This document shows, piece after piece, positions 4,251-60,728 of a stretch of DNA of 64,000 nt. The notes under the pieces are model-generated. The model searched no databases. It was not told the origin of the DNA and saw only the letters and a program-made list of their open reading frames with translations. Origin of the DNA: the human T2T-CHM13v2.0 reference genome, Homo sapiens. The position numbers were made by a program, and so were the translations under genes. The stretch spans positions 8,576,001 through 8,640,000 of the forward strand of contig CP086569.2 of assembly GCA_009914755.4 (NCBI GenBank), in the 5' to 3' direction. Positions within the stretch are counted from its first letter, which is position 1. Each line of letters starts with the position of its first letter.

Positions 4251-4857
4251 TACAACTGATAGTAATATTTTTGTTTTACAGTTTTGGAAACACAAATTTC
4301 CTTGATCAGATAAATGAATACTTGATAGTCACTAACACAGCACATTTGCTTGTGTATGGGAACCAGTGCAGGAAAGCAGTAGGATTGGATGCTCTTTCCC
4401 CTTGATCTCTGAACATGTATATACTGTGATAATAAAGAGTGAATTTGGATCAGGGAGTCTTTCTGCCAGAGCCATCAAAACTGTGGAAATAAAACCCTCC
4501 ACAAGTCAGGAAACAAAACAGTCTTTACTGGTAATAGTAACTATAAAATCTTTTGCAGATTTCATTTCATTTTTAATTTAGTGTAAATTAGGCAGCATAA
4601 CACAGACTACCCTGCTGCTAGTAGTATGCAATTTAATGACAAAAGTCAATTAGACTTGGTTGTTTAAAACTACAGAAATCTTAATTAACATCATAGTTAC
4701 ATGAGTAATTTTGAAAATATAAACCAGCTTATTTTAAACTTTCAGTTAGTCCACTAGATACCGAAATATTATTTGAAACACATTTCAAAATTCATGTGGA
4801 TAATGGGCAAAATGACAAGCTTTTATTTTTATTAATTTCCTTTTGGTTTTATGCCTT

Positions 4858-5108
4858 TCATTCTCTCTTTTCTCCCTTTCCTCCCTTCCTTCTTTCCTTC
4901 CTTCCTTCCTTCCTTCCTCTCTCTCCCTTCCTTCTCTCCCTCCCTCCCTCTCTCTTTCTCTCTTCCTGCCTTCCTTCCTGCCTGCCTGCCTGCTCACCCT
5001 CCCTCCCTCCTTCCTTCCCTCCCTCCCTCCTTCTCTTCCTTTCTTCCTCCCTTCCTTCTTTCTTTTTTTCCTCTATCTCTGTTTCTCTCTTTGATTTTTT
5101 TTTTTTTA
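4858..5108. repeat. (TTCC)n/(CTCC)n polypyrimidine microsatellite, about 250 bp
   Basis: Continuous 'ttccttccttcc...ccctccctcc...' run. It is the source of the low-complexity S/L/P-rich and E/R/K-rich ORFs at 4785-5215. Confidence 0.95.
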
Positions 5109-5393
5109 GGCAAAACCTTGCTCTGTCACCTAGGCTGGAGTGCAGCAGCATGATCTCATCTCACTGTAACCTCCCCATCCTGGGTTCAAGCAGTTCTCCA
5201 GTCATACCCTCCTGAGTACCTGCAACTGCAGGCATATGACACCGATCCTGGCTTTTTTTTTTAAATTGTATTCTTAGTAGAGACCAGGTTTTACAATGTT
5301 TGCTCAGGCTGGACTCGAACTTCTGTCCTCAAGTGATCCACCCACCTTAGCCCCTCAAAATGCTGGGATTCCCAGCATGAGCCAAAATGCCCA
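5098..5393 (-). mobile_element. Alu SINE (antisense)
   Basis: Poly-T head, then 'aggcaaaaccttgctctgtcacctaggctggagtgcagc...', ending '...ctcaaaatgctgggattcccagcatgagcc'. Confidence 0.9.
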
Positions 5394-5461
5394 CCAAGTG
5401 TTACGCATTTCTCTCCTCACTCATCTCTCTTATCTCATTTTTTATTTTATTTTATTTTTAT

Positions 5462-5743
5462 TTCTTAGACAGAGTCTCGCTCTGGTGCCAAGTCTGGAGT
5501 GCAGTGGTGTGATCTCTTCACTGCAAACCCTGTCCCCAGGGTTCAGTGGACTCTCCTGCATCAGCCTCCCAAGTAGCTGGGATTGTATCCATGGGCCACC
5601 ACACCCAGCTAGCTTTGGTATGATATTAGACATGGGATTTTGCTGTGTTGGCCAAGCTTGTCTCAAACTCCTGAGATCAAGAGATCACTCACCTTGGCCT
5701 GCCAAACTGCTAGGAGTGCAGGTGTGAGCCTCCATGCCCTGCC
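5462..5743 (-). mobile_element. Alu SINE (antisense), in tandem with the Alu at 5098-5393
   Basis: Body 'agacagagtctcgctctggtgccaagtctggagtgcagtggtgtgatc...', ending '...tgctaggagtgcaggtgtgagcctccatgccctgcc'. A (TTTTA)n tract at 5440-5465 precedes it. Confidence 0.9.
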
Positions 5744-8700
5744 TCATATCTCTTTTAAAGCTCAGTTGATTAGCAATATTGTCTTCCTGGAATGCTTTAT
5801 GTTTACAAAACAGCTATAGCACTATTATTTAGCCTCTTTGGATAAAGTATGGTAACACACACAACATATGTACATATGCACAGACACAGTCAGTGATCAA
5901 AAAAATCATTGTAGGCCAGGACCTAAAATGAAAGATGAGTTGCTGCAGTTGGCTAGTATTAAAGCAGACCAGATTTGACCCGTACCCAGCCAAGAGATGT
6001 GAACAGAGGCTTTCAAAAAACTCCATCATATACATGTTAGATTATTCTCCAGCCATATAGCAAGGGGACATTAAAGATCTGTTTGTGTTTAGAAGAGCCT
6101 GGATGGTTTGACTTTTCCAGGGTATTAGCATTCGTGACATTGGCCTTTAAAGCTCTCTGCAATTACTCAAATCAGTAGACAACTCAGTTTTTCTAGGAGT
6201 CTAAAGTGCTTTTCAAAATTATCTAAAACTTAATGGCTTAAAACAATAATTATAATTTACTAACTTCAGTCTTTGCAAACTTCCAGTCCCTCAGCCAAGT
6301 GATTGTGGTTCAGGGGCACTCAGAAGGATGCAATCTAGTGATGGCTGAGGACTGGGACATTGTTAGGTATCTTCTCATCTCCCTGGTGCCATGGCTAGCA
6401 TGACTCAAATAGCGGGGGCTGTACTGCTGAGATCCTTGGGCATCTCCTTCTATTTCTATGAGTCTCTCCATGGGATGTCCCTTCTGCATAGTGTTATTAG
6501 GGTGTTCGACTTCATGATGTACTGGTCCAGGGCTCCTGGGGGGTTTGTCCTCATGAAAGCAGGAGACTTAGGCAGAGCTGTGTCACCTTTTCTAACCTAG
6601 GCCAGGGGTGGCCCAGTATCCAGAAAATGCTTGCACTGTTTTCTATTCATTAGAAGCAAGTACTGTGTTCAGTCCCATCAGGAATATTTTCAAATGGGTT
6701 TGCAAAGAATTTCAGTGTTTTAGACCACTACAGTGGCCATGACTAATAATTACTTATTTTTATAAGTGCTGGATGGGTTTTACCCAACATAATAGCAGAT
6801 ACAGACTTTTAAGCTTAAAACCTAAATGTCATAGCTCCGAACATTTGGTTATATGTTGAAATAACTCTCAAGGAAAAATTGATTTAGAAATGAGAACTAT
6901 AAATAAATAAATGAGATAAACTCATAAATATCTGGATGAAATGCTTACAAAGAGGTCAGCCTGAAAAATGTCATGAAGTCTAATGTGCCACTATTTTACT
7001 ATTTCTATGGATATTATTTGGACAGGAGGACAAGGACTCAGGGGTCTGCTGGTCAGTCTCTGCACCTTGAAACAGCGGCTGGGGAACCAGGAGTAACACT
7101 TCCAGCCAACACCATGTGGTGAGGATGAGGAGTCCACCCAGGTTAAGGAGGATGTCAGCCAAATGTGACCTGAAGGAGAGTACACCTGGTATGACCAGGA
7201 TCAAGGTCTCTGGCACACATTGAAATCCCCCATGCCCAGCTGTGGCAGAGTGAATCACTCAGCTGGTGCTGGGTTTCCAGGTGTGTTCAGGAAGCAGCTC
7301 CCTGGGCTGGGAAGGATCCCCTCATTCCCTTGCCATGTGGGAGGGTGAGGCTTGTGGCCCCTGCTCTGTCTGTTCCCGCTCTTTACCTTCCCATTATCCC
7401 ACAGCTGGGTAAGGTGGCAGGACCCTGGAATGTAGAAGGGCCCTGGGTTGTTGACAGTGTCTGCGGGTGGCCATGTACTAGGAGGAGAGTCCTCACTGAG
7501 CCTCCCGTGAGCTTGGAGGCAGAGAAGGAACAGTCATGGGGCACTGGCTGTTCCAGAGTCCAGGGGCCTGTCCCAGAGAAGGCCAGGGGGACATTGTAAG
7601 CCTGTGGATCTGCAATCTAGGTGGAAGAGCTGTATCTGCCATGGCTGACATCATCAGGACAAGACACCCACTGGGTGGAGAGCTGGGCTTATGCATTTTA
7701 TCCCTGTCCTGAAGAGACTCTGCATGCCTGGCTCTCCTGGGAACAGTGATCCTGCGGACCCCTCTCTAGGACCACTCATGACCATAAGCTTAGGATCTTG
7801 TGTGCCTTGCTTCCAATCCACCCAGGTGACACATCCTGGAGAGGATATGTGAGGTGAAGCTCATGTGCGCACATGCTGCACTGGAACGGGGTGTCACCAG
7901 CCAGTTAGGCCACTGCTCACCAGGCCCTCTCCTGAGCTCCCACCTGGCTAAATGATAAGTGTCCCATCTACATGACCCCGCAGCCCAGGTTTCTCCTCCA
8001 CTTACCGACCCGCACCCTCCTGGGGAGAATGCCAGCCTCCTTGAGACTCAGGCCCTGCCGGACCCACATGCTGTCCTCTCTCATGGGCTGGACATGCTCT
8101 GGTGCATAGGGATTCCTGAATAGCAAATCCCAAAGCTCCACGGGTTCAATTGCTTCTTCTCTGAATACCTGCCTTCCCCGACCAAACACACAGGAAGACA
8201 CATACAGCTGCTAGGTTTTATTTCCCTCCAGGTGTCATTTCAGGTCCATGACATCTCCTCTAGGTAGCTTGCATCTGCCACCCATTTCCTCCTACCTCTG
8301 CCATTTGTGAAAACTATGAGGACTCTTCCCATCTCCCAAGAGTTCAGACTTCATGGGTCCTGAAGTTGGATTGCCAAACCTGGCAGTGCCCTGCTTGCCA
8401 GCTCAAGAGCTGAGTTTGAGGCACACCTCTGGCAGGAGTGTGGGCCCCCCTAAACCAAGGTACACAGTGGTACACAGCCACAGGTGTGCACACACAGGCA
8501 CAGCTCAGACACGCAGGCTGGAACATCTCCACACTCACACTGGTACGATTGAAACTGGCTGTCTACACCAATACTAAAGTGGACCTTAATGCTCAGCCAC
8601 ATTCCTTCACTACACACACACAGAAGGTCCCCTGTCATTTAATTGATCATCTATAAAGGGATTTATTTTTACTTTTATACTTTTTTAACTTACCAAAGTA

Positions 8701-11638
8701 TGTTGCATTCTTTCCCCCATCATGAAAAAGACTTTGATACAAGTAAGGAGGAAGAGCACTTTTTATAATAAAATGCTGTATCTGCATCTATATTAAGGCA
8801 TTTTACAAACTTTATGTCTATTTTTTAATGTCACAGGAGATGTCTCAGGGGCCGGGGAAGCATGAGTGAGGATGGCAGAGGGGAGAAAGCATGTCAGGGG
8901 AGGCTGGGGTCATTGAAACAAAACATGACACGACTGGGATAGCCATTCTAGAAGTATGTAGACCTAGGCGTGCCTCATGTGCACCTCTCTGTGGAGGGTA
9001 AAAGGGCCCTAGTGGAGGCCAAACTGAGCCCCAGGTGGTAGCAGGTATCAAGGCGCTGAAGGGAGCCAGGGAAGGATCATGTGGCCACTATCCATTGAGA
9101 TTGCTTCTCACCCATTGACCTTCGCCACTTCTGCCTCTTAGGTGGCTTCGGGTGCCCCAGTTCTGAAATATGAGTGTTACATTTCCCTGATGGGTTCTTC
9201 TCCCCCAGCCCAGGGATGGCCTGGGATTTCTCAGGGCAGGCTCCTCCCTGAGCTTTGAGTTCTCCATGTGTGTCCCAGCTCCAGGACCCACAGGGCTCTG
9301 AACCCCCTGCCCTGGGCTGCTTACCTGGCCTCCTCTCTGTTCCCTCTCTGAGGGCCTAACTCCTTCCAGTAGTGCTGCAGGGGATTGAGACAGAGGCCCT
9401 GAATGATAATTGGGGGGACTGGGGAATGGGGTCCATGACTGCTCAGGTCATGGTTCAAAGCCAGTTCCCCAGATGCCAAGGAAAGACCAGCAATGTCCTT
9501 TAATATGACACCCCTCAGCGGCACCCACCTCAGCAATCCTGACTGACTTTGAGTGATCACGGTCAGCCAACCAGCTGAAGAAGCTCAGTTAGGCTGTGTC
9601 CTGCCTGAAGCTGGGGGCTTCTGCTACATGACTCTAGAACCACTGGGCTACGTCATGCCAGACATCCTGTATCCTGGAGCAAGAGGAGTTGGGAAGGCTC
9701 ATGCCAGGCATAGCCTCCCACACTCCACCCCCGCTGCCATGCCAATAGGCACTCCTTACAGAGGATGCCAACCTGATACTCCTTAATGATCACTTCATTG
9801 CAGAAATAAAGGTTGTGACAAAAGGAAAACTTTGTCCTGCCGCCAGTACCCTGGATGGCTGTTTCTTCACCTGCCAGTCCAAGAAGAAGAGAACAGACTC
9901 AAAGGGATCATTTCATCTTGCTAGGCTGAGGGCCTGCTAGCTAGGATGAAGCATGCATTTCCCCTTCCCAGCTCTCCCACTGAGACACTCCTGGACCCCA
10001 GGAGGGCCTCAACCTGACCAGGACCCTCCATCCCTCCCCCAGACCCAGGTACCCCAGACTGATCTGCAAATCCATCATGTAGCTTACTTGGCAGGACTTC
10101 CTCATGGTTTCTGAACCCTGCCAATATCTGGGTGTGTGCACAATCTGCCTCTGTTCAAGGAGCCTCCAAATGATTGGATGGGTGTGCCAGGAAACATCCT
10201 GCAACTTTGCAAGAGCTGGGAGACTGTTGGGCAGGGCTATCCCCCAGACCTTTGACCTGGCACTCTGCATTGGTGGTCCTGTCTCTGTCCAGCGTGGGGG
10301 CACTGTAGCAGATGTGGTGGTCTTGTGGGCGGGTAGAGGGAGGCCCAGAAAGCTTCTGCCAACAAGGAGCGGGGGAGCACAAGTAGGCAAGGGATTGGGT
10401 ATGGGGTGCTGTGGTGTAAGGCAGCTGTTTCTTCAGATTTCCTGAGCTGAGCGGCACATAGGTGCTAGACAGGCTCTGCTGAGGGTGTCAAGGTGTGTGG
10501 TCCCCTCTTCTCCTGGTCTCCCTGAGGGGTGGGTGTGTCCACTTGAGGGAACTTGTGTGGGTAGAAGGGACTGCAAGGCTGTGCCTGTCACTCCTTATGG
10601 GGCTTGTGTGTGTGCAGTGGAGGAGTGTGTGCAACAGAGGTTATATGTGCTCAGGTCCTACAGCTCTTTGGGTGCAGCAGAGGCAGAGGAAAGAAAGCCT
10701 GTCTGGGTAGCTGGTGTTTGCCTTGCAGAGGACAGCAGCCCCCTGCATCGTGAACCTGAGTCTTGAGCAACTTGTGATTCTGGTGTGAGGCCTCTGGACA
10801 CACACACGGGGAGTAGGTGTCGTTCCATGGCTGGCATGGGCATGCAGACTCCCCTTCCTTCAAGGACTTTCCCAGGGAAACCTGCCCTTCAACTTGCTGC
10901 TATGCCTGAAGGGTCCTTGGCACCACTATTCTCTCTTGTGAGTGCTGAGCTTGGCTCCCAGTCCCTGTCACATGCTCTCAGGGTACCCACAAGCAAGCTG
11001 TCTTACTATCTGCTGGAGCCTAGCCTCAGCTCCCCTCGCTGTCCCCCATTCCCTGCCTCCTGGCTGACTCTGTGTGCCTCTGTCCTGGTTCCCGTGCTCC
11101 CCACCCCCAGAAGCCTGATGCCAACCCACTGCTGCCAATCATCCCAAATGGGCAGCTGCAAGGATATGCTCTGGCCCAGAAGCCAGAGATGCCCTGGCTG
11201 ATGGCACCTGTTCTGTCCAGGCTGGGCAGGCGCCTCTGCCAAAGCTTCTGCCTCAGCCTCAGGCAGGCCATGAGGCCTGGGCCATTCACAGAGCCCAGCT
11301 CTGAGTGAAGGACCTCCAGCGAGTCTGCTGCTGGCTGGCGAGTCCTGGGGCCAGGGCCAGGGCCAGGGCCAGGCTGTGTCCACCTGTCCTCTACCTGCAG
11401 CTCCATGTTGGCCTTCTCTTTGACCAACACCTGGACCACCGCCATGATGTCATCCATCACCAGCACCTTCTCCTCCCACGAGGGCACCTCCACACTCTGT
11501 GCCCTGGCTGGCCTCTCCTGCAGAGCCTCCAAATTCAACGGGGTGCCTCCTTTGGAGGTCCCACTGACTACGACCTGTACTTTCCCCTCCACATCCAGAT
11601 ATGTGTATCCTTAAAATATACATAAAACAATAACTTAA

Positions 11639-12062
11639 AGGCATTCCCATTTCTCCACATCCTCTCCAACATCTGTTGTTTCCTGACTTTTTAATGGTCG
11701 CCATTCTAACTGGCATGAGATGGTATCTCATCGTGGTTGCAGGGCCATTGATGAAGCTGAAAACCATCATACTAAGCAAACTACCACAAGGGCAGAAAAC
11801 CAAACACCGCATGTTCTCTCTCATAAGTGGGAGTTGAACAATGAGAACACATGGACACAGGGCTGGGAACATCACACATCCGGCCCAGTTTGGGAGTGGG
11901 GGCCTGGGGGAGGGATAGCATTAGCAGAAATACCTAATGTAAATGATGAGTTGATGGGTGCAGCAAACCAACATGTGACATGTATCCCTATGTAGCAAAC
12001 ATGCACGTTCTGCACATGTGCCCTAGAACTTAAAGTATAATTAAAAAAGGAAAAAAAAACTC
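11639..12062 (+). mobile_element. LINE-1 3'-end fragment with internal inversion (twin-priming structure)
   Basis: 11639-11748 is the reverse complement of L1 ORF2 ('aaccacgatgagataccatctcatgccagttagaatggcgaccattaaaaagtcaggaaacaacag...'). 11749-12062 is sense L1 ('...gatgaagctgaaaaccatcatactaagcaaactaccacaagg...catgtgacatgtatccctatgtagcaaacatgcacgttctgcacatgtgccctagaacttaaagtataat') ending in a poly-A. Confidence 0.85.
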
Positions 12063-13317
12063 AAAAGGAAAAATAGCTCTCCAAACCTAAATACTAAATA
12101 GAAAATTAGTATCAAGTGACCTAGAATGTAATTTACATGAAAATGTCACAAACATTCAGCAGATAGTTTCTAAATGCCAAAATAAGCCTGGCAGTCAGCA
12201 AGAAGCTAAGAACAACACGGTCCTTGCTCTTCTGAGTATGCAGTTGTTACAGGCACAGAGATAAATGAGGAATAATAAGTGCTGTAACTGCTTTAATAGG
12301 CAAATACAGGAAATATAACAAAATAAGGGCAACAATTTTGATAAACAAAACATTAATAAATGACAAAATGTTAAAAAAAAATGCATGATTTTAATAAACA
12401 TTGCCTTCTTCTTCCCACCAGAAGAAAACTCATGCCTCTGCTTTATTGGCTGACATGTTCCTAAGGAGATGTGACAGGTCTGATTTGTATTACTAAATCA
12501 CAATTGCCTCATTTATGAAACACATGTTTTAAATCCTTTTGAAGGTCAAATGAGAATATTTGCTGTTACTGGATAAACTGTCAAGTGCTAACCAAATATT
12601 ATTTTCTCACAGTGATTTATACCATGTGTATATTACATGGTTAGTGTAGCATTCTCATAAAGAAAACCTTGAAACATATCTGCTGCTCAGTTTTTATTTT
12701 TCAACTGTATCAGTCTTTATTATTTATCATATGTTTTCTAGCAGCTTTTGAATTTTAAAGAGATATGTATAGACCAAAAAAAGAAGGACAATGAAATTGT
12801 GAGACTACAGTAGTAATAATTTCATTGATAAATTTGTTTATAAAGCTAGATTAGATTCTATTTCTCCCAAAAGATTCTCAGAGAAATACTAAGCTGATGC
12901 ACCCACTGTTTGAAATGGTCTTAAAGTTGTTGCTTAAGTTAGAGTTAACTATTTTTAAAGCCTGAAGATACAGTAATAGTTTCATGCACCACAACAGGGA
13001 ATATAGGATTTTTAGTGCTACTTGCTCTCACCAGAAATAATCATAACTATTAAATTGTTCTTTATGTCACAGTAAATTTTTCATTTCTACCTCATGTTTT
13101 GGCATTTATTTTTAAATGCATTTTCACCCTTATTGTGCTTCTGTGAAAAACTGCGGATTTAAGTTCATATCATAATTATTTTTCATTGTTATTTGTCTGT
13201 TCCTAAAGCTTCACAGAAATAAAGAATTCCATTTATGCTTGTATCTTTCAGCAACCTCATTTCAGATAATGGTGCACATTACTGCAAGTATCACACGTAC
13301 AGGTCCAAAGTTGGGGG

Positions 13318-13505
13318 GCAGGGCAGGAGGAGGAGGATGAGATGGAAGAGGAGAAGGAGAAGGAGAAGAAGAAGGAGAAGAAGAAGGAGGAGGAGGAGGA
13401 GGAGGAAGAGGAAGAAAGAAGGAAGAAGGAAGGAAGGAAGGAAGGAAGAAGAAGAAGAAGAAGAAGAAGAAGAAGAACAAGAAGAAGAAAAAGAAGAAAA
13501 CAGCA
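13318..13505. repeat. (GGA)n/(GAA)n/(GAAG)n purine microsatellite
   Basis: The tract reads 'ggaggaggaggatgagatggaagaggagaaggag...gaaggaaggaagg...gaagaagaagaag'. It explains the R/K/E-rich pseudo-ORFs at 13235-13558. In copy B it is only about 25 bp (56290-56315). Confidence 0.95.
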
Positions 13506-15744: not shown

Positions 15745-16010
15745 GTGGTTCACGCCTGGAATCGCAGCTCTTTGGGAGGCTGAGAAGGGAGGATTGCTTC
15801 AAGCGCAGGGTTTAAGACCAGCCCAGGCAACATAGCAAGTCCTATCTCTACAAATGTAACTAATTAATTAATTAATTAAATTGGGCATGATGGCACACAT
15901 CTATCGTTCTATTTACTCAGCAGTTCAAGGTTGTAGTGATCTGTGATCACACACTACACTTCAGTCTGGCCCACAGAGCAAGACTTTGTCTCTACAAAAT
16001 AATACAATAT
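15745..16010 (+). mobile_element. Old Alu (AluJ-like), sense
   Basis: The sequence reads 'ggtctggtggttcacgcctggaatcgcagctctttgggaggctgagaagggaggattgcttcaagcgcagggtttaagaccagcccaggcaacatagcaag...cacttcagtctggcccacagagcaagactttgtctc'. It has many substitutions. Confidence 0.85.
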
Positions 16011-23718: not shown

Positions 23719-26999
<3,281 letters not shown>

Positions 27000-27258
27000 T
27001 TGCTTGGCAGATCTTCCTCCATCCCTTTACTTTGAGTCTATGTGTGTCTCTGCACGTGAGATGGGTCCCCTGAATACAGCATCCTGATGGGTCTTGACTC
27101 TTTATCCAATTTGCCAGTCTGTGTCTTTTAATTGGAGCATGTAACCCATTTACATTTAAAGTTAATATTGTTATATGTGAATTTTATCCTGTCATTATGA
27201 TATTAGCTGGTTATTTTGCTTGTTACCTGATGCAGTTTCTTCCTAGCATCAATGGTCT

Positions 27259-36102: not shown

Positions 36103-37346
<1,244 letters not shown>

Positions 37347-38105: not shown

Positions 38106-38780
<675 letters not shown>

Positions 38781-43162: not shown

Positions 43163-43432
<270 letters not shown>

Positions 43433-47169: not shown

Positions 47170-47454
47170 TTTATGCCTTTCATTCTCTCCTTTCTCCCCT
47201 TCCTTCCTTCTTTCCCTCCTTCCTTCTGTCCTTCCTCCCTTCCTTCTTTCCTTCCTTCTTTTCTACCTCCCTCCCTCCCGTCCCTCACCTCTTCCTCCCT
47301 TTTTTTCTTTTATTTTTTCTTTTCTTTTCATTCTTTCTCTCTTTTTCTTTCTTTCTTCTCCTTTCTTTTCTTTCTTTCTTTCTTTCTTTATTTCTCTCTT
47401 TCTTCTTTCTTTCTTTCTTTCCTTTTTTTTCACTGTCTCTGTTTCTCTTCTTGA

Positions 47455-47465
<11 letters not shown>
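47170..47465. repeat. (TTCC)n-type polypyrimidine microsatellite (paralog of 4858-5108)
   Basis: Run of 'ccttccttccttctttccctccttcc...tttctttctttctttc'. Confidence 0.95.
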
Positions 47466-48127
<662 letters not shown>

Positions 48128-51100: not shown

Positions 51101-52447
51101 TAAAATTCTTATCTGTATCTATACTATTAAGTCATTTAAAAATATTACATCTTTTTTTTAATGTCATAGGAAATGTCTCAGGGGCAGGGGAAGCATGAGT
51201 GAGGATGGCAGAGGGGAGAAAGCATGTGAAGGGAGCCTGGAGTCATTGAAACAAAACATGACAGGACTGGGATAGCCATTCTAGAAGGACATAGACCTAG
51301 GTGTGCCTCATGTGCACTTCTGTGTGGACGGTAAGAGGGCGCTAGCTGAGCACAAACTGAACCCCGGCTGGTAGCAATCCTCAAGGCGTGGAAGAGAGGC
51401 AAGGAAGGATAATATGGCAGCTATCTGTTGATCCTTGCTTTGCACCAATTGACCTTCACCACTTCTCCTTTTTAGGCAACTTCAGGTTCCCCAATTCTGA
51501 GACATGAGTGTTACAGTTCCCTGATGAGCCTTTCTCCCCTAGCCCAAAGATGGCCTGGGATTTATCACTGCAGGCTCCTCCCTGAGACTTGAGTTCTCTA
51601 TGTGTGTCCCAGCTCCAGGACCCACAGGCCTCTAAGCCTCCAGCCCTGGGATCTTTACCTGGCCTCCTCTCTGTTCCCTCTTTGAGGGCCTAACTCCTTC
51701 CAGCAGTGCTGCAGGGGATTGAGACAGAGGCCCTGGGTGATATACTGGGTGACTGGGGAAAGGGGTCTATGACTGATCATGTCATGGTTCAAAGCCAATT
51801 CCACAGATGCCAAGGAAAGACTAGCAAGATCCTTTCCCATGACACCCCTCAGCGGTGCCCACCTCAGCAATCCTGGCTGACTTTGAGTGATCACGGTCAG
51901 CCAACCAGCTGAAGAAGCTCAGTTAGGCTGTGTCCTGCCTGAAGCTGGCGGCTTCTGCTGCATGACTCTAGAACCACTGGGCTATAGTCATGCCAGACAT
52001 CCTGTATCCTGGAGCAAGAGGAGTTGGGAAGGCTCATGCCAGGCCTAGCCTCCCACACTCCACCCCCGCTGCCATGCCAATAGGCACTTCTTATAGATGA
52101 TGCCAACCTGATACTCCTTAATGATCACTTCATTGCAGAAATAAAGGCTGTGACAAAAGGAAAACTTTGTCCTGCTGCCAGTACCCTGGATGACTGTTTC
52201 TCCACGTGCCAGTCCAAGAAGAAGAGAACAGACTCAAAGGGATCATTTCATCTTGCTAGGCTGAGGGCCTGCTGGCTAGGATGAAGCATGCATTTCCCCT
52301 TCCCAGCTCTCCCAGTGAGACACCCCTGGACCCCAGGAGGACCTCAACCTGACCGGGACCCTTGACCCCTCCCCCAGACCCAGGATCCCCAGCCTCATCT
52401 GCAAATCCATCATGTAGCTTACTTAGCAGGACTTCCTCATGGTTTCT

Positions 52448-52761
52448 TTCTTTCCTTCTTTTCTTTTCTCTTTTTCTTTTCTTTTCTTTTCTTTCTTTAG
52501 ATGGAGTCTCACTCTGGCTAGAATGCAGTGGCGGGATCTCAGCTCACTGCTAGCTCCACTTCCCAGGTTCACGCCTGCCTCAGCCTCCCCAGTACCTGGG
52601 ACTACAGGTGTCCACCACCAGCCTGGCTAATTTTTTGTATTTTTAGTAGAGACTGTGTTTCACTGTATTAGCCAGGATGGTCTGGATCTCCTGATCTCCT
52701 GATCCGCCCACACTGGCCTCCCAAAGTGCTGGGATTACAGGTGTGACCCACCGTGCCCAGC
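52448..52761 (-). mobile_element. Alu SINE (antisense) present only in copy B, with a target-site duplication
   Basis: Copy A reads 'cttcctcatggtttctgaaccctgcc' uninterrupted at about 10095. Copy B has 'tcctcatggtttct' (52434-52447), then a degenerate poly-T/(TTTC)n, then an Alu ('agatggagtctcactctggctagaatgcagtggcgggatctcagctcactgc...gtgacccaccgtgcccagcc'), then 'tcctcatgatttct' (52762-52775). Confidence 0.9.
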
Positions 52762-54292
52762 CTCCTCATGATTTCTGAACCTGACTGACATCTTGGTGTG
52801 CAGCACAATCTGCCTCTGGTGAAGGAGGCTCGAGATGATTGGGTGGACATGCCAGGAAACATCCTGCAACTTTGCAAGAGCTGGGAGAGTGTTGGGCAGG
52901 GTTATACCCCAGATCTTTGGCCTGGCACTGTGCATTGGTGGTCCTGTCTCTGTCCGGCATGTGGGGGCATAGTAGCAGGAGTGTTGTTCTTGTGGGTGGG
53001 TGGAGGGAGGCCCAGAAAGCCTCTGCCAACATCGAGAGGGGAGCACGAGTAGGCAGGGCATTGGGTGTGGGGTGCTGTGGTGTGACGCAGCTGTTTCCTC
53101 AGAGTTCCTGAGCTGCACCTGGCACTTGTGTGCTCAGTGCTGGACAGGCTATAGTAAGGGTGTCCAGGTGTGTGGTCCCCTCTTCTGGTCTCCCTGAGGG
53201 GTGGGCGTCTCCATTTGAGGTAACCACTGTGGGTAGAAGGGACTGCAGGGCTGTGACTGGAACACTCCAGGGGGCTCGCGTGTGCAGCGGAGGCATGTGT
53301 GCAATGGAGGTTTTATATGCTCAGGAACTACAGCTCTTTGATTGCAGTGCAGGCAGAGGGAAGAAAGCATGTCTAGGAAGCTGGTGCCTGCCTTGCAGAG
53401 GATGGCATCCCCATGTACCGTGAACCCAGGTCTTGAGCACCTTGTGTTTCTGGAGTGAGGTTGCTGGACACCAACACGGGGAGTGGGAGTGGTTCTATGG
53501 CTGGCGTGGGCATGCAGACTCCCTTTTTCCAAGGACTTTTCCAGGGAAACGTGCCCTTCATCTTGCTGTGCGTGAAGGGTCCTTGGAGCCACTGTTCTCA
53601 CTTGTGAGTGCTGAGATTGGCTCCCAGTCCCTACCACGTACTCTCAGTGCACCCGCAAGCAAGCTGCCCTCCTATCTGCAGGACGCTGGCCTCGGCTCCC
53701 CTCTGTGTCCCCATGCCCTGCCTCCTGACTGACCCTGTATGCCTCCCGCCTGGCTCTGTTTCTCCCCACCCCCGGAAACCTGACGCCCATCCCCTGTTGT
53801 CGGTTATCCTCAATGGGCTGTTGCAAGGATATGGCTCTGGCCCAGAAGCGGGAGATGCCCTGGCTGATGGCCCCTGTGCCGTCCAGCCCGGGCAGGCGCC
53901 TCGGCCAAAACTTCCGCCTCAGCCGTGTGTCCCATGCAGCCTGGGGCATCCACAGAGTGCAGCTCCAAGTAAAGGACCTCCAGAGAGTCTGTTGCCTGCT
54001 GGGGCATGCTGGGGCCAGGGCCAGGCTGTGCCCGCTGGTAGTCCTTCTACTGCTCTATGTTGGCCTTCTCCTCGACTACTATCTGGACCACTGCCATGAT
54101 GTCGTCCAGCACCAGCACCTTCTCCCCGCCAAGGGCGCCTCTGCACTCTATACCCTGGCTGCTGTCTCCCGCAGAGCCTCCAATTTGAAAGGGGTTCCTC
54201 CTCTGGACTTCCCGCTGACCATGACGCGCACTGTCCACTCCACCTCCGAATAATGTATCCTTAAAGTATCCTTTAAAAAAAAAAAACTTAAA

Positions 54293-54705
54293 ATCATTCC
54301 TATTTCACCACATCCTTTCCAATATCTATTGTTTCCTGACTTTTTAATGATCGCCATTCTAACTGCAATGAGATGGTATCTCATTGTGTTTGCAGGGTCA
54401 TGGATGAAGCTGAAAACCATCATACTAAGCAAACTATCACAAGGACAGAAAACCAAACACCACATGTTCTCTCTCATAAGTGGGAGTTGAACAATGAAAA
54501 CACATGGACACACAGTGGGTAACATCACCCTCCTGGGCCGGTTGGGGGATGGGGGTCTGGGGGAGGCATAGTATTAGAAGGAATACCTAATGTAAATGAT
54601 GAGTTCATGTGTGCAGCAAACCACCATGGCACATGTATCCCTATGTAATAAACCTGCACATTCTGCACTTGTACCCTAGAACATAAAGTATAATAAAAAA
54701 ATTAA
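54293..54705 (+). mobile_element. LINE-1 3' fragment with twin-priming inversion (paralog of 11639-12062)
   Basis: Same inverted and sense L1 segments, with the junction at about 54390 ('...gagatggtatctcattgtgtt|tgcagggtcatggatgaagctgaaaaccatcatactaagc'). Confidence 0.85.
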
Positions 54706-55606
54706 AAGGAAAAATAGCTCTCCAAACCCTAAAACTGAATAGAAAATTAGTATCAAGTGGTCTAGAACGTAACTTACATGAAAATGTCACAAACATTTAG
54801 CAGATAGTTTCTAAATGCCACAATAAGCCTGGCAGTCAGCAAGAAGCTCAGAAAAACATGGTCTTTGCTCTTCTGAGTGTGCAGTTGTTACAGGCACATA
54901 GATAAATGAGGAATAATAAGTGTGTTAAGTGCTGTAATAGGCAAATACAGGAAATATAACTGGAAATAAGGGCAACAATTTTGATAAACAAAACGTTAAT
55001 ACATGATGAAATGTAAAAAAAAAAAAAAAAAAAAAAGAACAAAACTCATGACTTTAATAAATGTTGCCTTTTTCTTCCCTCCAGAAGAAAACTCATGCCT
55101 CTGCTTTATTGGCTGACATGTTCCTAAGAAGACTTAACAGCTCTGATTTGTATTAATCACATTTTCCTCAGTTATTAAACATGGGTTTAAAAATCCTTCG
55201 AAGGTCAAATGAAAATATTTGCTATTACTGTATAAACAGTCAAGTGCTACACAAATGTTATTCTCTCATGCTGTATTTATACCACATATATCACATGGTT
55301 AGTGTAGCATTCTCATAAAGGAAATCTTGAAATGTGTCTGCTGCTCCATTTTTATTTTTCAACTGTTTCAATCATTATTATTTGTTATATGATTTCTAGG
55401 GGCTTTTGAATTTTAAAGAAAATATGTATAAACGAAAAAGAGGACAATGAAATTTCGAGACTACAGTCATAATTTCATTGATTAATTCAATTGTTTGTAA
55501 AGCTAGATTAGATTATATTTCTCCCAAAAAATCCACTGAGAAATTCTAAGATTACGCACCTATTGTTTGAATGACTGTAAAGTTGTTGCTTAAGTTAGAG
55601 TTCACT

Positions 55607-55903
55607 ATTTTTTTTTTTTTTTTTTTTTTGAGACAAAGTCTTTCTCTCTTGCCCAGGCTGATACGGTGTGGCACAGGATCTCAGCTCACTGCAAACTCCG
55701 CCTCCCAGGTTCTCCTGCCTCAGCCTGATGAGTTGCTGGGACTACAGGTACCTGCCACCACAGCCGGCTAATTTTTTGTATTTTTTAATAGAGACGGGGT
55801 TTCACAGTGTTAGCCAGGATGGCCTCAATCTCCTGACTTTGTGATCCACCTGCCTTGGCCTCCCAAAGTGTTGGGATTACAGGTGTGAGCCACTGCTCCA
55901 GGC
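55607..55903 (-). mobile_element. Alu SINE (antisense) present only in copy B
   Basis: Copy A reads 'gttagagttaactatttttaaagcctgaag' at about 12940. Copy B has 'gttagagttcactat', then 25 T, then an Alu ('gagacaaagtctttctctcttgcccaggctgatacggtgtggcacaggatctcagctcactgc...gtgtgagccactgctccaggcc'), then 'agagttaattaactctttttaaagcctgtag'. The TSD copies have diverged. Confidence 0.88.
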
Positions 55904-58211
55904 CAGAGTTAATTAACTCTTTTTAAAGCCTGTAGATACAGTAATAGTTTCATGTATTAAAACAGGGAAAATAGGATTTTTGGTGCTAGTTGCTCTCACC
56001 AGAAATAATCATAACTTAAAAGTTATGATTTAAACTGCTCTTTATGTCAAATTAAATTTTCATTTTTCTACCTCATGTTATGGATGAGGTATGTATTTTT
56101 AAATGTATTTTCATGCTTATTGTACTTCTGTGAGAAAATGCAGACTTAAATTCATATCATAGTTATCTTTCAGTTTTACCTGTCTGTTCCAAAAGGTTCA
56201 CAGAAATAAAGAATTCCATTTATGCTTGTATCTTTCAGCAACCTTATTTCAGATAACGGTGCACATTACTACAGATAGCACATAGACAGGTCCAAAGGGA
56301 GAAGAAGAAGAAGAAATCAAGTTTTTAAGTCTATATATTTGTAACACTGAATCAGAAACTCAGTAGTCATAGTGAAATCAAAAAATGATCTTAGTCAATT
56401 TCATCTCATACCTAGACTGAAATATGAATCTTCAAAAGAAAAGAAAGTTCAGAACTTTAGGCTTATCAAAATTTTTCTATATAGATAAAATTATTGGTGA
56501 CTTTCTCTCACTAGAAAATGTAAATAAAAATCCATGCTTTGATTATATGTAAATAAAAATATTTTTATTTATATCACATGACTTATGCAAGCAAGTAGTA
56601 AAGTGAAAGTACAATAATAAAATGATATAAGGAAATTTCTCTGTGTCAAAAAATTCCATTGAGGTTATTAATTTTAGAAAAACCATAGAGAATGCTTCAT
56701 GAAACTACATTATACAGTGCCTTTTAGTATTTTACTTACATTTTAAATAATCAACAAATGAAAGGAAATTTTTAATCATTATTTATTACCAATAACATTA
56801 TTCCACTCAAATAAGTCTTTTGAGTTAAATATTTTAAATAAAACATTAAAAACAAATTGTATTGACTGCTGTCAGCTTTTGATGAAATAATACTTCTTTA
56901 TTTGTAGTCATGTGAGGTATAACTTTCTTTTCACAGTAGATCTTTTATAACACCAGTGGTATTGTTTTCTCTGATACAAACCTTGTGATATCTCACAGCT
57001 TTTCTGTATCCATACATTACATGCCTCCAGAGAGTAGGCTTCAGATAGAAAAATTATATTTGTGATGAAATTCTAGGAAAGGGAATGGTAAAATGGGAGA
57101 ATAATTTCTAAATTTCTAACTGTTCATCAATGGATTTGGATATATTTAGATATAGACAAATATTTGCACACTGCAAGTTTGCACATGTGTATAAAAATTT
57201 ATATGAGATACCCATAATGTATGGGTTGTATAATCTTTTAATTATACGTGTGGGAAATTTGATAAGCATTTATCCTTATCAAATACTCAATTTGAAGTAC
57301 TATACTCAATTTGATGTAAAGCCAACAAAATCTCTGTCAACATTCACTTCAATTAATCCAGTAATTTTACCTGCTGATAGCTTCATTATCTTTTTCCCCT
57401 GTTGGCAGCCTGAAAGTTGATTTTCACACTAATTCAGTGCTCAGTTTGCCGTCCATAAGAGACTAGCACCTTGCTGTGGATTGTGACCTCTGACTCCAAC
57501 ACTTTCGTCTTTTAACAGTCCTAACTTTGCATACCTAATGAACTTTGTACATGGTTTAAAAAAAGTTGAGTGAAATGTCAGGCCATGCTGTGAAATACTC
57601 TATTGTTTCTATATCTCTAATTGAACTTTCAGGTTGTAGAGAACAAGAAAAACAATTCAATACATTTCTTAGTATCCAGTCCAATGCACCATTTCTTATT
57701 ACTACCAAACTATTCCTTCAAGGCACTGATATCTAAACACAGCTAGATATATCAAAATCTCTTCTCATTAATAACCATTATGTTAATCACTCTTGCCCAG
57801 ACCTCCACTCTGACTGTGAAATCCTCAGGTGGAAATTGCTGTAATGGTTCACACTATGGGAATGACTATTTTTTGGCATAATTACTGCTGTCCAACTTAC
57901 TGTAGAATATCACATTAAATGGCAGCTCTTAGATACATAAATCCTGTTCATTAATTTTTAACGTCCAACATTTATGGTATTGCACAAGTAAAAATCTTTG
58001 ATAACGTAAATGGTTAGCTGAGCAATGGCTAAAATACATCATAGCAATTCAAACATTCATTTACTTAACTAGAAGGGTGATAGCTCATTAACTCCTGATG
58101 AAAACAAAGTTGGGAAATTGCACGTGTTGAATTGGTCACGAAATTATGTATTTCAGGGTATTTTATAAAACTATCCCTGCTATGTACGATGCCTCACCTG
58201 CAAGCATAAAG

Positions 58212-58295
58212 CTTTAGTATATGTATGTATATATATAGATAGATAGCATACAGATAGATAGATAGATACAGATATAGATAGAGATAGAGGTATAG
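58212..58295. repeat. (GATA)n/(TAGA)n microsatellite, copy B only
   Basis: Run of 'tatatatagatagatagcatacagatagatagatagatacagatatagatagagatagaggtatagata'. Copy A has only 'tatatataaaaaataaatgc' at the paralogous site near 15460. Confidence 0.85.
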
Positions 58296-58574
58296 ATACA
58301 CACATAATGTGTTTTGGCTCTTAATGTCTCTCTACATTTGTCTTCATAACCTCAACACAAAACCACCCATGTACTTGACTTTCAGGTCAGTTGTCTACCA
58401 GTTATTAGGGTTTAAGTAAACAAAATAAAGATTTCAAAACATGGTGACCAAATATGAGAAATCACACTCTCCCCATAAGAAATAATTATTCTCAAGTGAC
58501 ACTGCAAATGCAAAATTAAAAGAAGAAATTAAGTCTAACATATTGCAGGATTCTAAAATCTAAAATTTCCTGTT

Positions 58575-58870
58575 GGAGGTCTGGTGGTTCATGCCTGGAA
58601 TCAAAGCTCTTTGGGAGTCTGAGAAGGAAGGATTGCTTCAAGCCCAGAATTCCAGACCAGCACAGGCAACATAGCAAGATCTACTTCTACAAATGTAACT
58701 AATTAATTAATTAATTAAATTGGGCATGATGGCACACATCTGTTGTTCTATTTACTCATGAGTTCAAGGTTGCAGTGAGCTGTGATTGCACACTGCACTT
58801 CAGCCTGAGCCACGGGGCAAGACGTTGTCTCTACAAAATAATTCAATATAACAAAACAAAGTAAATTAAA
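58575..58870 (+). mobile_element. Old Alu (AluJ-like; paralog of 15745-16010)
   Basis: Starts 'ggtctggtggttcatgcctggaatcaaagctctttgggagtctgagaaggaaggattgcttcaagcccagaattccagaccagcacaggcaacatagcaag' and ends '...cacttcagcctgagccacggggcaagacgttgtctc'. Confidence 0.85.
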
Positions 58871-60074
58871 ATAAAAACACTTTCAGGTGTTTTTTGGAAG
58901 TTTGTATAATTGCTCCAAAGCATAGATATTGTTTAAAGTTGAGCAATTCATGGGGAACAGGCAGTGAATATTGTTTATATCATTTTCCAGGAATTAGGGT
59001 AAATATGTTAGAAGATTATATATAAATATCTAATAAGCTTTGGTATAAAAAATATTGACAAATGTCAAGCGATTGTGTTTATAGACACTTTCTTCAAAAT
59101 ATTCATAGTTTAATTGGAGAATGAAGAGAAGAGAAATAATTGCAATATACTCTGACAAGTGTTACAACAGATACAATTTAGTAACGGAGTTGGAGAGGAA
59201 GGAAGTTCTCAACTGGGTTTACAAGGGTTTGGGGAACCTTCTTAGGGCAAGAAGAATTGATGGCACCTGTAAGTATTCCAATTTGGAAGCAGAAAGTTTG
59301 GGAGAAAAACACTATAGAAAAAAAAAACATTCTATCAATGATAGAAGTACTAACAGTGCATATGATGCCATCTGCCAAATTCTTAGACCATACTAGCTCA
59401 ATAAATATTTCTTGAATGAATCCATGAATGGAAGATATTGGAAAAAGTGTTCTGGAAGAGATTTTCAAAATCCTATTAAGGAAAGGTAAATACCATGTAC
59501 TTTACAATTTTGCCTGCGTTTCTTTACGTTTTGTTATGTTTACAACCTCATAAGCTCTGTTTTATTTTTTGGTCTTTTCCCTAATATCATGTATGAATCT
59601 TTCCTGAGACTACTTATCTCTTGATCCTTTGACACTATGTTTGTCTCTGATACTCCTTTGTGTGAGGTCCTGGATTTGTATTCCCACAGCTACATCACTC
59701 ATCTCTCCCTGGCACTATTCTGTAATAGAGAGGCCTGGCCCCTGGGAGGCAGTGTTCCTAGGCTCCCATAAAAATTACTGTTTCAGATCAGTCAAGGGGT
59801 GACTCTGCAGAGATTAGAGAACAAGAAGATTACAGAAGCCTGTTTGTTTCCCACTCCTTTTCAGTAGGGAATGTTTCCACAATGATTCCATGCCTGCAGT
59901 AATGCTCTCTGTGTTTCCATTTTCCATGGAGTGGCCCTAATCCTAGACTGGCTTTTCTGATGCCATTTTCTCCAATTATCTTCTCTAAAGGATTTGGGTA
60001 CTATTTTTGGAATTTTAAATTTTAAAAAATATTGATATGGAAGGGGGTCAGTGAAGTGCCTCTTAGAGGAGGGT

Positions 60075-60728
60075 GTGGTTCTGAGAGGTGAAGCTGGCTG
60101 GGCTTCCGGGTCTGATGGGGACTTGGAGAACTTTTGTGTCTAGCTGAAGGATTGTAAACACACCAGTCAGCACTATGTGTCTAGCTAAAGGTTTGTAAAT
60201 GCACCAATCAGTGCTGTTTCTAGCTAATTGGGTGAGGACTTGGAGAACTTTTCTGTCTAGCTAAAGGATTATAAATGCACCAATCAGCACTCTGTCAAAA
60301 TGAATCAATCAGCACTCTGTAAAACAGACCAATCAGCACTCTGTAAAATGGACCAAACAGCTCTCTGTAAATTGGACCAATCAGCAGGATGTGTGCCAGA
60401 CCAAATAAGGGAATAAAAGCAGGCCACCTGAGCCAGCAGCCACAACCCACTCAGGTCCCCTTCCCCGCTGTGGAAGTTTTGTTCTTTCACTCTTCACAAT
60501 AAATCTTGCTGCTGCTCACTCTTTGGGTCCACGCTGCCTTTATGAGCTGTAACACTCACCATGAAGGTCTGCAGCTTCACTCCTGAAGTCAGCAGGACCA
60601 CAAACCCATTGGGAGGAATGAACAACTCTGGACATGCCACCTTTATGAACTGTATCACTCACCATGAAGGTCCGCAGCTTTACTTCTGAAGTCAGCTAGA
60701 CCACGAACCCACCCATTCTGGACGCACT
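60075..60728 (+). mobile_element. LTR12-family (ERV9) LTR, lacking its 5' third relative to copy A. It is the 5' LTR of the downstream ERV internal region.
   Basis: The CCAAT-repeat units 'ggggacttggagaacttttgtgtctagctgaaggattgtaaacacaccagtcagcac...' are followed by 'ccaaataagggaataaaagcagg' and then '...gagctgtaacactcaccatgaaggtctgcagcttcactcctgaag...'. The GC-rich part seen at 18200-18876 in copy A is absent here. Confidence 0.8.

What the first reader, a model, noticed from the sequence alone, without database searches (positions are those of the whole stretch)
4815..60728. Old direct segmental duplication (about 15.1 kb vs 13.6 kb, about 42 kb apart) that makes up close to half of the window
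Copy A (4815-19948) and copy B (47135-60728) are collinear and share the same ordered landmarks. These are the (TTCC)n tract, two antisense Alus, GC-rich CpG-poor segments, the L1 twin-priming fragment, an AluJ and the LTR12. By hand alignment of several hundred bp they differ at roughly 7-9% of sites. That makes this an old duplication, tens of millions of years on a neutral primate clock, and not a recent one. The proximal breakpoint sits exactly at the start of a long polypyrimidine microsatellite in both copies. The distal end sits at the 3' boundary of an LTR12.
Basis: seen in the sequence. Interest (0 to 1): 0.6.

Follow-up and report, generated by a model that had tools for sequence, protein, structure and literature searches.

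The report
Old non-coding direct duplication, primate DNA
Two stretches of about 12.5 kb lying 42 kb apart are diverged copies of one ancestral non-coding segment, an ordinary relic of an ancient duplication in a primate genome; its far end cannot be located because a later retrovirus insertion interrupts the second copy and runs off the window.

Summary
The direct duplication is real. A collinear +/+ chain joins A 4821-17243 to B 47143-60081: 11,834 aligned bases, 87.1% identity, K2P 0.143. The same two Alus, the same twin-primed L1 fragment and the same AluJ-like piece sit at the same positions, so this is not repeat paralogy.

Three details of the finding need correcting.
- Divergence is about 13%, not 7-9%.
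- The proximal edge lies about 55 bp before the microsatellite, in AT-rich DNA.
- The 'distal end at the LTR12 3' boundary' does not hold. B's LTR12 (60082-60726) is the 5' LTR of a provirus: a PBS-like site, gag p30 and protease follow, and it runs off the window. A's LTR (18272-19966) is a 1.7 kb type with the ~600-nt 5' extension, and about 1 kb of A-only DNA separates it from the shared flank. The two LTRs are probably separate ERV9 insertions, so the distal end cannot be determined here.

Two AluY-like insertions with target-site duplications are specific to B. Together with shared AluS-like elements, they place the event at very roughly 25-40 Myr ago. No coding or Rfam signal was found. 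Two islands of 3-5% divergence suggest gene conversion or constraint. Overall this is ordinary and of low interest.

The parts
4821..17243 (+). Copy A, robustly collinear core (12.4 kb)
   Evidence: BLASTN chain and global alignment to 47143-60081; 87.1% identity over 11,834 columns.
47143..60081 (+). Copy B, robustly collinear core (12.9 kb)
   Evidence: Same chain. It is longer than A because of two B-only Alus and microsatellite growth.
4878..5062 (+). (TTCC)n polypyrimidine microsatellite in copy A. Homology begins about 55 bp upstream, at 4821.
   Evidence: TRF, period 4, 44.8 copies; sequence read directly.
47177..47431 (+). (CCTT/CTTT)n microsatellite in copy B. Homology begins at 47143.
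   Evidence: TRF rows; sequence read directly.
5117..5743 (-). Two antisense AluS-like elements in A (5117-5384 and 5467-5743). They are shared with B and so predate the duplication.
   Evidence: At 461 non-CpG sites there are 51 differences from the consensus shared by A and B, 31 A-only and 31 B-only.
47477..48125 (-). The same two Alus in B (47477-47750 and 47848-48125)
9524..10019 (.). Low-divergence island 1 in A (partner B 51858-52354): 3.4% divergence against a 12.9% background
   Evidence: Scan statistic LLR 26.9; the largest value in 200 shuffles was 11.3. No ORF is kept in both copies. RNA fold z about -1.9 on both strands. CpG o/e 0.12, like the flanks.
51858..52354 (.). Low-divergence island 1 in B
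6558..6947 (.). Low-divergence island 2 in A (partner B 48950-49351): 4.9% divergence
   Evidence: LLR 13.9; shuffle maximum 11.3.
11644..12041 (+). L1 3'-end fragment with an inverted upstream piece (twin-priming layout), shared with B at about 54300-54701
   Evidence: 11741-12041 matches the window's own L1 3' end (39154-39455) on the plus strand, and 11644-11692 matches L1 38837-38789 on the minus strand. Translations look like the L1 ORF2 C-terminus.
15743..15854 (+). AluJ-like fragment, shared with B 58583-58831
52443..52771 (-). B-only AluY-like insertion flanked by a target-site duplication (TCCTCATG). It is post-duplication.
   Evidence: Alignment gap with the repeated flank. Non-CpG divergence from AluY 5.6%.
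55601..55912 (-). Second B-only AluY-like insertion with a target-site duplication of about 15 bp (AGAGTT.A.T...)
   Evidence: Non-CpG divergence 8.1%.
17244..18271 (+). 'X': about 1 kb present only in A, between the shared flank and A's LTR12. It has no counterpart anywhere else in the window.
   Evidence: Its first ~600 bp look like an LTR of another family; that is my reading of the sequence and was not tested.
18272..19966 (+). A: solitary ERV9 LTR of the 5'-extended (LTR12C/D/E-like) type, 1.7 kb, TG...CA termini, followed by non-retroviral DNA
   Evidence: CCAAT-bearing ~41-bp repeats. The 602-nt extension at 18282-18883 is absent from B. This matches the description in PMC11853044. There is no homology between 19967-23132 and 60729-64000.
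60082..60726 (+). B: short (645 bp) LTR12-type 5' LTR of a provirus. It begins with TGAGAGGTGA directly after the shared flank.
60730..60747 (+). Primer-binding-site-like sequence 3 nt after the LTR
   Evidence: TGGCTACCACAAAGGGAA matches 15 of 18 bases of the complement of a tRNA-Arg(TCG) 3' end. That tRNA sequence was recalled from memory. It is the only match in the window.
60748..64000 (+). Decayed internal retroviral sequence running off the window
   Evidence: Pfam Gag_p30 at about 62562-62792 (E 2.7e-9) and RVP protease at about 63211-63480 (E 3.7e-8). A reverse-transcriptase-like motif sits at the window edge.

Best explanation
An ancestral non-coding segment of at least 12.4 kb already carried two AluS-like elements, a twin-primed L1 fragment, an AluJ-like piece and a polypyrimidine microsatellite. 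It was copied once in direct orientation, so the two copies now start 42.3 kb apart. Since then both copies have decayed essentially neutrally, about 6.7% per lineage at non-CpG sites.

Changes after the duplication:
- Copy B acquired two AluY-like elements and an ERV9-type provirus.
- The microsatellites changed length.
- Two short tracts stayed, or were made again, much more alike than the rest.

The proximal junction lies in AT-rich, non-repeat DNA, which points to a non-homologous or replication-based origin rather than Alu-Alu or LTR-LTR crossover (inferred).

The apparent distal end is not a breakpoint. Collinearity stops exactly where B's provirus is inserted, and the provirus runs off the window. 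Homology to A 17244 onward is therefore expected to resume beyond B's 3' LTR. The event may have been a tandem duplication with a unit of about 42 kb, of which only the first third of unit 2 is visible (inferred, not shown).

The LTR12-to-LTR12 similarity is most likely family resemblance between two independent ERV9 insertions of different subtype.
For: - Duplication: a collinear chain through unique DNA and four different repeats at identical positions.
- Neutral decay and absence of genes:
  - No Pfam domain in any open frame of 55 aa or more in A 5744-17243.
  - No hit among 5.8 billion proteins for the open frames of A 5832-11622.
  - No Rfam or tRNA hit.
  - CpG o/e 0.12-0.18.
- Order of events:
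  - The shared Alus carry 51 common, 31 A-only and 31 B-only non-CpG changes.
  - The two B-only Alus have target-site duplications and 5.6% and 8.1% non-CpG divergence.
- Provirus in B:
  - The LTR starts with TG right after the flank.
  - A PBS-like site lies 3 nt after the LTR.
  - Gag_p30 and RVP domains follow.
- Different LTR subtypes: A has the 602-nt 5' extension and more U3/U5 repeat units, and B does not. PMC11853044 describes this extension as a feature of LTR12C/D/E.
- A's sequence runs uninterrupted (GGTTCTTGGCTAGG) across the point where B's LTR begins.
- No homology upstream of the proximal edge or after either LTR.
Against: - Two ERV9-type LTRs in the same orientation within about 1 kb of homologous coordinates is an unlikely coincidence if they are independent. 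About 5,000 LTR12 copies per genome are reported.
- A single ancestral provirus is not excluded. It would have been reduced to a solo LTR in A and 5'-deleted in B, with X gained or lost.
- Nothing beyond base 64000 could be obtained. Resumption of homology and the tandem 42-kb unit are therefore predictions, not observations.
- Absolute dating is loose:
  - The Alu consensus sequences were written from memory.
  - All Alus in the window look roughly twice as diverged as is typical for human DNA.
  - K/2 = 0.07 gives 32 Myr at 2.2e-9 per site per year, but more than 60 Myr at hominoid rates. The larger figure conflicts with the shared AluS-like elements.
Confidence: 0.65

Rival explanations
1. 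One ERV9 provirus was already in the segment when it was duplicated. Copy B kept the provirus. Copy A lost the interior by LTR-LTR recombination and now holds a solo LTR. The LTR12 pair is then truly paralogous, and the duplication again continues past B's provirus.
For: - The two LTRs have the same orientation and nearly the same homologous position.
- Most HERV copies are solo LTRs formed by recombination (abstract of PMC11007075).
- The R/U5 regions align at 83.5% over 510 bp.
Against: - It needs about 1 kb of extra DNA (X) gained in A, or lost in B, exactly at the LTR's first base.
- It also needs loss in B, or gain in A, of precisely the subfamily-defining 602-nt extension while keeping the 10-nt LTR terminus.
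- LTR identity (81-84%) is below the flanking 86-87%.
- The bases flanking A's LTR (GTAG / GGAG) match at only 3 of 4 positions.
Confidence: 0.2
2. The duplication really ends at or inside the LTR12. The copying event used ERV9 sequence as its distal breakpoint, for example recombination or template switching between two ERV9 elements.
For: Within the window, homology stops at the LTRs and nothing after them aligns.
Against: - A simple LTR-LTR unequal crossover predicts homology between 1-4820 and the about 4.8 kb before copy B. None is found (score 14 against a shuffle mean of 14.7).
- The X segment and the different LTR subtypes remain unexplained.
- B's LTR is an ordinary 5' LTR followed by a PBS-like site and gag.
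Confidence: 0.1
3. There is no duplication. The matches are only independent copies of interspersed repeats, or an assembly artefact that placed two haplotypes in tandem.
For: About a fifth of each copy is Alu or L1 sequence.
Against: - Collinearity runs for 12.4 kb, including about 9 kb in which I recognised no repeat, although no repeat library was available.
- The repeats sit at identical positions.
- 13% divergence, copy-specific Alus with target-site duplications and a copy-specific provirus are incompatible with haplotype duplication.
Confidence: 0.01

Closest known systems
Segmental duplications / low-copy repeats of primate genomes, as catalogued at >=1 kb and >=90% identity
   Same: It is a large (>10 kb) direct intrachromosomal copy of mixed unique and repeat DNA, followed by copy-specific retroelement insertions and possibly local gene conversion.
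   Different: Identity is 87%, below the conventional 90% cut-off (PMC2796684). It belongs to the older, largely uncatalogued class that is seen only in genome self-alignments. No gene content was detected. The proximal edge is not in an Alu.
Local tandem duplication by non-homologous or replication-based mechanisms
   Same: Orientation is direct, there is a single sharp proximal junction in AT-rich non-repeat DNA, and the spacing is a few tens of kb.
   Different: The second junction and the rest of the putative second unit lie outside the window, so tandem organisation is not shown.
ERV9 provirus and solitary LTR12 elements
   Same: - U3 tandem repeats of about 41 bp carry CCAAT, TCTAGCT and GTGGGGA-type motifs.
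- U5 has repeated units and the termini are TG...CA.
- A's LTR has the ~600-nt 5' extension.
- In B, gammaretrovirus-type gag p30 and protease lie downstream.
   Different: They are passengers in the duplicated region, not its cause. Both are heavily CpG-depleted (o/e 0.17-0.19). Subfamily assignment was made by architecture only, because no Dfam or Repbase consensus was available.

Membership tests
Segmental duplication (conventional catalogue definition) | Length >= 1 kb | tested here: met
   12.4 and 12.9 kb collinear.
Segmental duplication (conventional catalogue definition) | Sequence identity >= 90% | tested here: not met
   87.1% over 11,834 aligned columns. The threshold is as stated in PMC2796684.
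Ancient genomic duplication (as opposed to repeat paralogy) | Collinear homology through unique DNA and through several unrelated interspersed repeats at identical positions | tested here: met
   Two Alus, an L1 fragment and an AluJ-like piece are shared in order. No homology exists outside the block.
Ancient genomic duplication (as opposed to repeat paralogy) | Copy-specific insertions with intact target-site duplications, showing independent history after copying | tested here: met
   B-only Alus at 52443-52771 and 55601-55912 have target-site duplications.
Tandem duplication | The second unit reproduces the whole first unit, so the spacer is also duplicated downstream of copy B | not testable with these tools
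   It would lie beyond base 64000. Attempts to obtain flanking sequence failed.
Alu-mediated (NAHR) duplication | Breakpoint inside or at an Alu in both parental positions | tested here: not met
   The proximal edge is in AT-rich non-Alu DNA, about 290 bp before the first Alu body. The distal edge is not visible.
ERV9 / LTR12 | U3 tandem repeats of about 41 bp with CCAAT (NF-Y), GATA-type and GTGGGGA motifs | tested here: met
   TRF finds a period of 41 with 6.1 copies in A. CCAATCAGCNCYCTG occurs 7 times in A's LTR and 4 times in B's, against 0.03 expected. The motifs are as described in PMC11853044.
ERV9 / LTR12 | ~600-nt 5' extension (LTR12C/D/E subtypes) | tested here: met
   Met for A (18282-18883). 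Not met for B, whose LTR jumps from terminus nucleotide 10 to the A-equivalent position 18884.
ERV9 / LTR12 | Provirus organisation: LTR, then PBS, then gag-pro-pol of gammaretroviral type | tested here: met
   For B only: a PBS-like site at 60730-60747, plus Gag_p30 and RVP domains. The tRNA-Arg identity of the PBS rests on a sequence recalled from memory.
Solo LTR formed by LTR-LTR recombination | Single LTR flanked by a 4-5 bp target-site duplication | tested here: inconclusive
   A's LTR is flanked by GTAG and GGAG, a 3 of 4 match.

The most novel reading that the evidence does not exclude
The two low-divergence islands are paralogous functional non-coding elements, such as enhancers or exons of an unannotated transcript. 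They are A 9524-10019 / B 51858-52354 at 3.4% divergence and A 6558-6947 / B 48950-49351 at 4.9%, against a 12.9% background. On this reading selection has held them in both copies for tens of millions of years, rather than gene conversion producing them. Island 1 has an acceptor-like CCCCTCAG|CGG at about 9518 and an AATAAA at about 9806 on the + strand.
Probability: 0.2. Interest if true: 0.35.

Novelty: new member of a known kind. Interest (0 to 1): 0.15.

Why it matters
It matters little beyond bookkeeping. The result shows that about 40% of this window is one old duplication. That affects repeat annotation, read mapping and any inference about 'conserved' elements, since each copy's best match is its paralogue.

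The useful corrections are methodological. A duplication boundary that coincides with a retroelement edge should first be suspected of being a copy-specific insertion or a provirus versus solo-LTR difference. Hand-estimated divergence from a few hundred bases can also be off by nearly two-fold when divergence varies along the duplication.

The two low-divergence islands are the only part that could repay follow-up. They would serve as a test case for gene conversion versus constraint in old duplicates.

Tried and rejected
1. The inverted 3-kb match 23133-26138 vs 39484-36146 (89%) as part of the duplication: rejected.
   - These are two L1 elements in opposite orientation.
   - Pfam finds L1 ORF1 domains at 27262-27819(-) and RVT_1 at 36315-37343(+).
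   - The match starts at the poly(T)/poly(A) end of each L1 and stops where the right-hand L1 is 5'-truncated.
2. The microsatellite as the expanded tail of the adjacent antisense Alu, with Alu-mediated crossover: rejected.
   - About 35 bp of non-repeat DNA and a separate T13 tail lie between the microsatellite and the Alu.
   - Homology begins about 55 bp before the microsatellite.
3. LTR12-LTR12 unequal crossover as the cause: rejected. It predicts homology between the DNA preceding copy A and the DNA preceding copy B, and none is found.
4. X (17244-18271) as the 3' interior of a provirus: rejected. There is no polypurine tract before the LTR and no match to B's internal sequence.
5. Hidden genes: none found.
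   - Pfam on all open frames of 55 aa or more in A 5744-17243 gave nothing.
   - A composite of the open frames of A 5832-11622 searched against 5.8 billion proteins gave nothing.
6. RNA genes: none found.
   - Rfam at gathering threshold on the whole window gave nothing.
   - Rfam at E<=1 on copy A gave only a chance-level bacterial sRNA hit.
   - There are no tRNAs.
   - Folding of island 1 gave z about -1.9 on both strands.
7. Getting sequence beyond the window or from another species: all empty.
   - Exact-protein look-ups of two window ORFs.
   - Two metagenome scans.
   - One prokaryote-genome scan.
8. Confirming the tRNA-Arg primer of ERV9 from the paper library: no usable source found.
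Full report
**Observation**

BLASTN of the first half of the window against the second half, and of the window against itself, gives one collinear plus/plus chain. It has six large pieces running from A 5031-17243 to B 47392-60082, at 83-88% identity and E-values of 0 to 1e-97. Weaker microsatellite matches extend it back to 4821/47143.

A global alignment of the two regions has 11,834 aligned columns between A 5031 and 17243. Identity is 87.1%, with 889 transitions and 643 transversions (K2P 0.143) and about 1,260 gapped columns in 84 events.

Both copies contain the same elements in the same order:
- a polypyrimidine microsatellite;
- two antisense Alus;
- a GC-rich, CpG-poor stretch (GC about 0.51, CpG o/e 0.12-0.18);
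- an L1 3'-end fragment whose upstream piece is inverted relative to the window's own L1;
- an AluJ-like fragment.

That criterion is clearly not met, so the duplication is real.

**Corrections to the description**

- Divergence is about 13%, not 7-9%. Only two islands are that similar or better.
- Homology begins at A 4821 / B 47143 in the shared sequence TTTTATTTTTATT.ATTTC.TTTTGGTTTTATGCCTTTCATTCTCTC. That is about 55 bp before the microsatellite. A local alignment of the 1 kb upstream of each copy scores no better than shuffled sequence (14 against 14.7 +/- 1.6).
- The microsatellite is not simply the tail of the neighbouring Alu. That Alu has its own T13 tail, and about 35 bp of other sequence separates the two.

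**The distal end**

Robust collinearity stops at A 17243 / B 60081. In B the next bases are TGAGAGGTGAAGC..., the start of a 645-bp LTR12-type LTR (60082-60726). It has CCAAT-bearing tandem repeats.

Three nucleotides after this LTR comes TGGCTACCACAAAGGGAA. This matches 15 of 18 bases of the complement of a tRNA-Arg 3' end. I recalled that tRNA sequence from memory, and the match is the only one in the window.

The following 3.2 kb encodes, in decayed form, a gammaretrovirus-type Gag p30 (E 2.7e-9) and a retroviral protease (E 3.7e-8). A reverse-transcriptase-like motif sits at the window edge. B's LTR12 is therefore the 5' LTR of a provirus that runs off the window.

In A the shared flank continues uninterrupted (GGTTCTTGGCTAGG...) into about 1 kb of A-only sequence, which I call X (17244-18271). 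X matches nothing else in the window. Only after X does a 1.7-kb LTR begin (18272-19966), and non-retroviral DNA follows it.

A's LTR starts with the same ten bases as B's (TGAGAGGTGA). It then carries 602 nt (18282-18883) that B lacks, after which the two become alignable (38 of 50 matches from A 18874 / B 60082).

A recent review describes exactly this feature (PMC11853044). LTR12C/D/E carry an additional extension of about 600 nt at the 5' end. The U3 and U5 regions vary through repeats of about 41 bp and 72 bp. The U3 repeats carry CCAAT/GATA/GTGGGGA motifs.

The two LTRs are therefore different structural subtypes. They also align at only 81-84% in patches, below the 86-87% of the adjacent unique DNA.

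The simplest account needs no base-exact coincidences. B received its own ERV9 provirus at the position homologous to A 17243, and the true continuation of copy B lies beyond the provirus, outside the window.

The main alternative is one ancestral provirus, kept in B and reduced to a solo LTR in A. That needs X to be gained or lost exactly at the LTR's first base, and the subtype-defining extension to be gained or lost cleanly. It would still place the end of the duplication beyond the provirus.

A true breakpoint at the LTR by LTR-LTR crossover predicts homology between the DNA preceding copy A and the DNA preceding copy B, and none is found.

Against independent insertion, two ERV9 LTRs in the same orientation about 1 kb apart in homologous coordinates is an unlikely coincidence. 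About 5,000 LTR12 copies per genome are reported. I therefore hold this reading at about 0.6-0.7, not higher.

**Order and age of events**

I used Alu consensus sequences written from memory. That makes them a lead, not a reference.

- The two shared Alus are closest to AluSx. At 461 non-CpG sites, 51 differences from the consensus are common to A and B, 31 are A-only and 31 are B-only. This gives about 6.7% change per lineage since the duplication and about 11% before it.
- The alignment gaps at B 52443-52771 and 55601-55912 are Alus flanked by target-site duplications (TCCTCATG, and a repeat of about 15 bp). They are insertions into B after the duplication.
- These two are closest to AluY and differ from it at 5.6% and 8.1% of non-CpG sites, about the same as the post-duplication divergence.

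From general knowledge of Alu subfamily ages, the event therefore falls after AluS-type activity and about when AluY-type activity began. I put it at very roughly 25-40 Myr ago.

K/2 = 0.07 gives 32 Myr at 2.2e-9 per site per year. At slower hominoid rates it would exceed 60 Myr, which conflicts with the shared AluS-like elements. All Alus in the window also look about twice as diverged as is usual for human DNA. Absolute dates are therefore soft.

**Content**

- No Pfam domain was found in any open frame of 55 aa or more in A 5744-17243.
- A composite of the open frames of A 5832-11622 found nothing among 5.8 billion proteins.
- Rfam at gathering threshold, and at E<=1 over copy A, gave nothing credible.
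- There are no tRNAs.

The duplicated segment is non-coding as far as these tools can see.

**Heterogeneous divergence**

A scan statistic on the mismatch string finds two tracts far less diverged than the 12.9% background.
- Island 1 is A 9524-10019 / B 51858-52354, with 17 mismatches in 496 bp and LLR 26.9.
- Island 2 is A 6558-6947 / B 48950-49351, at 4.9% divergence and LLR 13.9.
- The largest value in 200 shuffles was 11.3.
- One tract is unusually diverged: A 10967-11641 at 20.8%.

Island 1 keeps no ORF in both copies, because a 1-bp indel breaks the only 77-aa frame. It folds only marginally better than shuffles on either strand (z -1.9 and -2.0). It is as CpG-depleted as its flanks (o/e 0.12).

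These data do not separate interlocus gene conversion from purifying selection. An outgroup is needed.

**The rest of the window**

The other large self-match is 23133-26138 vs 39484-36146, inverted, at 89%. It is two L1 elements in opposite orientation. L1 ORF1 domains lie at 27262-27819(-) and RVT_1 at 36315-37343(+). The match begins at each element's poly(A) end and stops at the right-hand element's 5' truncation. It is repeat paralogy and not part of the duplication.

**Comparison with what is known, and verdict**

This is an old, direct, non-coding genomic duplication of a well-known kind. At 87% identity it falls below the >=1 kb, >=90% convention used for segmental-duplication catalogues (PMC2796684). 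It belongs to the older class seen only in self-alignments.

The proximal junction is not in an Alu or an LTR. That favours a non-homologous or replication-based origin, which is an inference.

Whether it is a tandem duplication of about 42 kb or an interspersed copy cannot be decided without sequence beyond base 64000. I could not obtain that sequence.

Interest is low.

Noticed in passing
window 23133-26138 and 36146-39484: There is a 3-kb inverted match at 89% identity between two L1 elements in opposite orientation. The left one (about 23133-29200, minus strand) is near full length and has an L1 ORF1 open frame of 186 aa. The right one is 5'-truncated at 36146. This is repeat paralogy, not part of the duplication.
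   Followed up: yes
window 38454-38793: An AluY-like element with a tail of about 49 A's is inserted into the right-hand L1. It is absent from the left-hand L1 at the matching position.
   Followed up: partly
window 60082-64000: A decayed ERV9-type provirus (5' LTR, PBS-like site, gag p30, protease, start of RT) runs off the right end of the window. Its 3' LTR and target-site duplication are not visible.
   Followed up: yes
window 17244-18271: About 1 kb of A-only DNA lies between the shared flank and A's LTR12. Its first ~600 bp look like an LTR of another retroviral family (TG start, a polyadenylation-signal-like CAATGAAAC, a U5-like tail). It could not be identified without a repeat library.
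   Followed up: partly
whole window (Alus at 808, 2109, 34342, 38454, 43162, 44056 and others): Every Alu is unusually far from the consensus sequences I recalled. AluY-like elements show 4.5-8% non-CpG divergence and AluS-like elements 7-18%, roughly twice what is typical for human DNA. This could reflect a fast-evolving region or lineage, or errors in my consensus sequences.
   Followed up: no
window 10967-11641 / 53633-54294: This is the most diverged tract of the duplication (20.8%). It is GC-rich and contains a short GGCCCA-type repeat. Some of the excess may be alignment error.
   Followed up: no
window 13311-13483 and 58226-58299: Each copy has its own microsatellite expansion: (AGG/AGA)n only in A and (GATA)n-like only in B, at otherwise aligned positions.
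   Followed up: partly
window 9518 and 9806 (+ strand), inside low-divergence island 1: A splice-acceptor-like CCCCTCAG|CGG and, about 285 nt downstream, an AATAAA followed by GT-rich sequence are both kept in copy B. This could mark the terminal exon of an unannotated transcript, or it could be chance.
   Followed up: no
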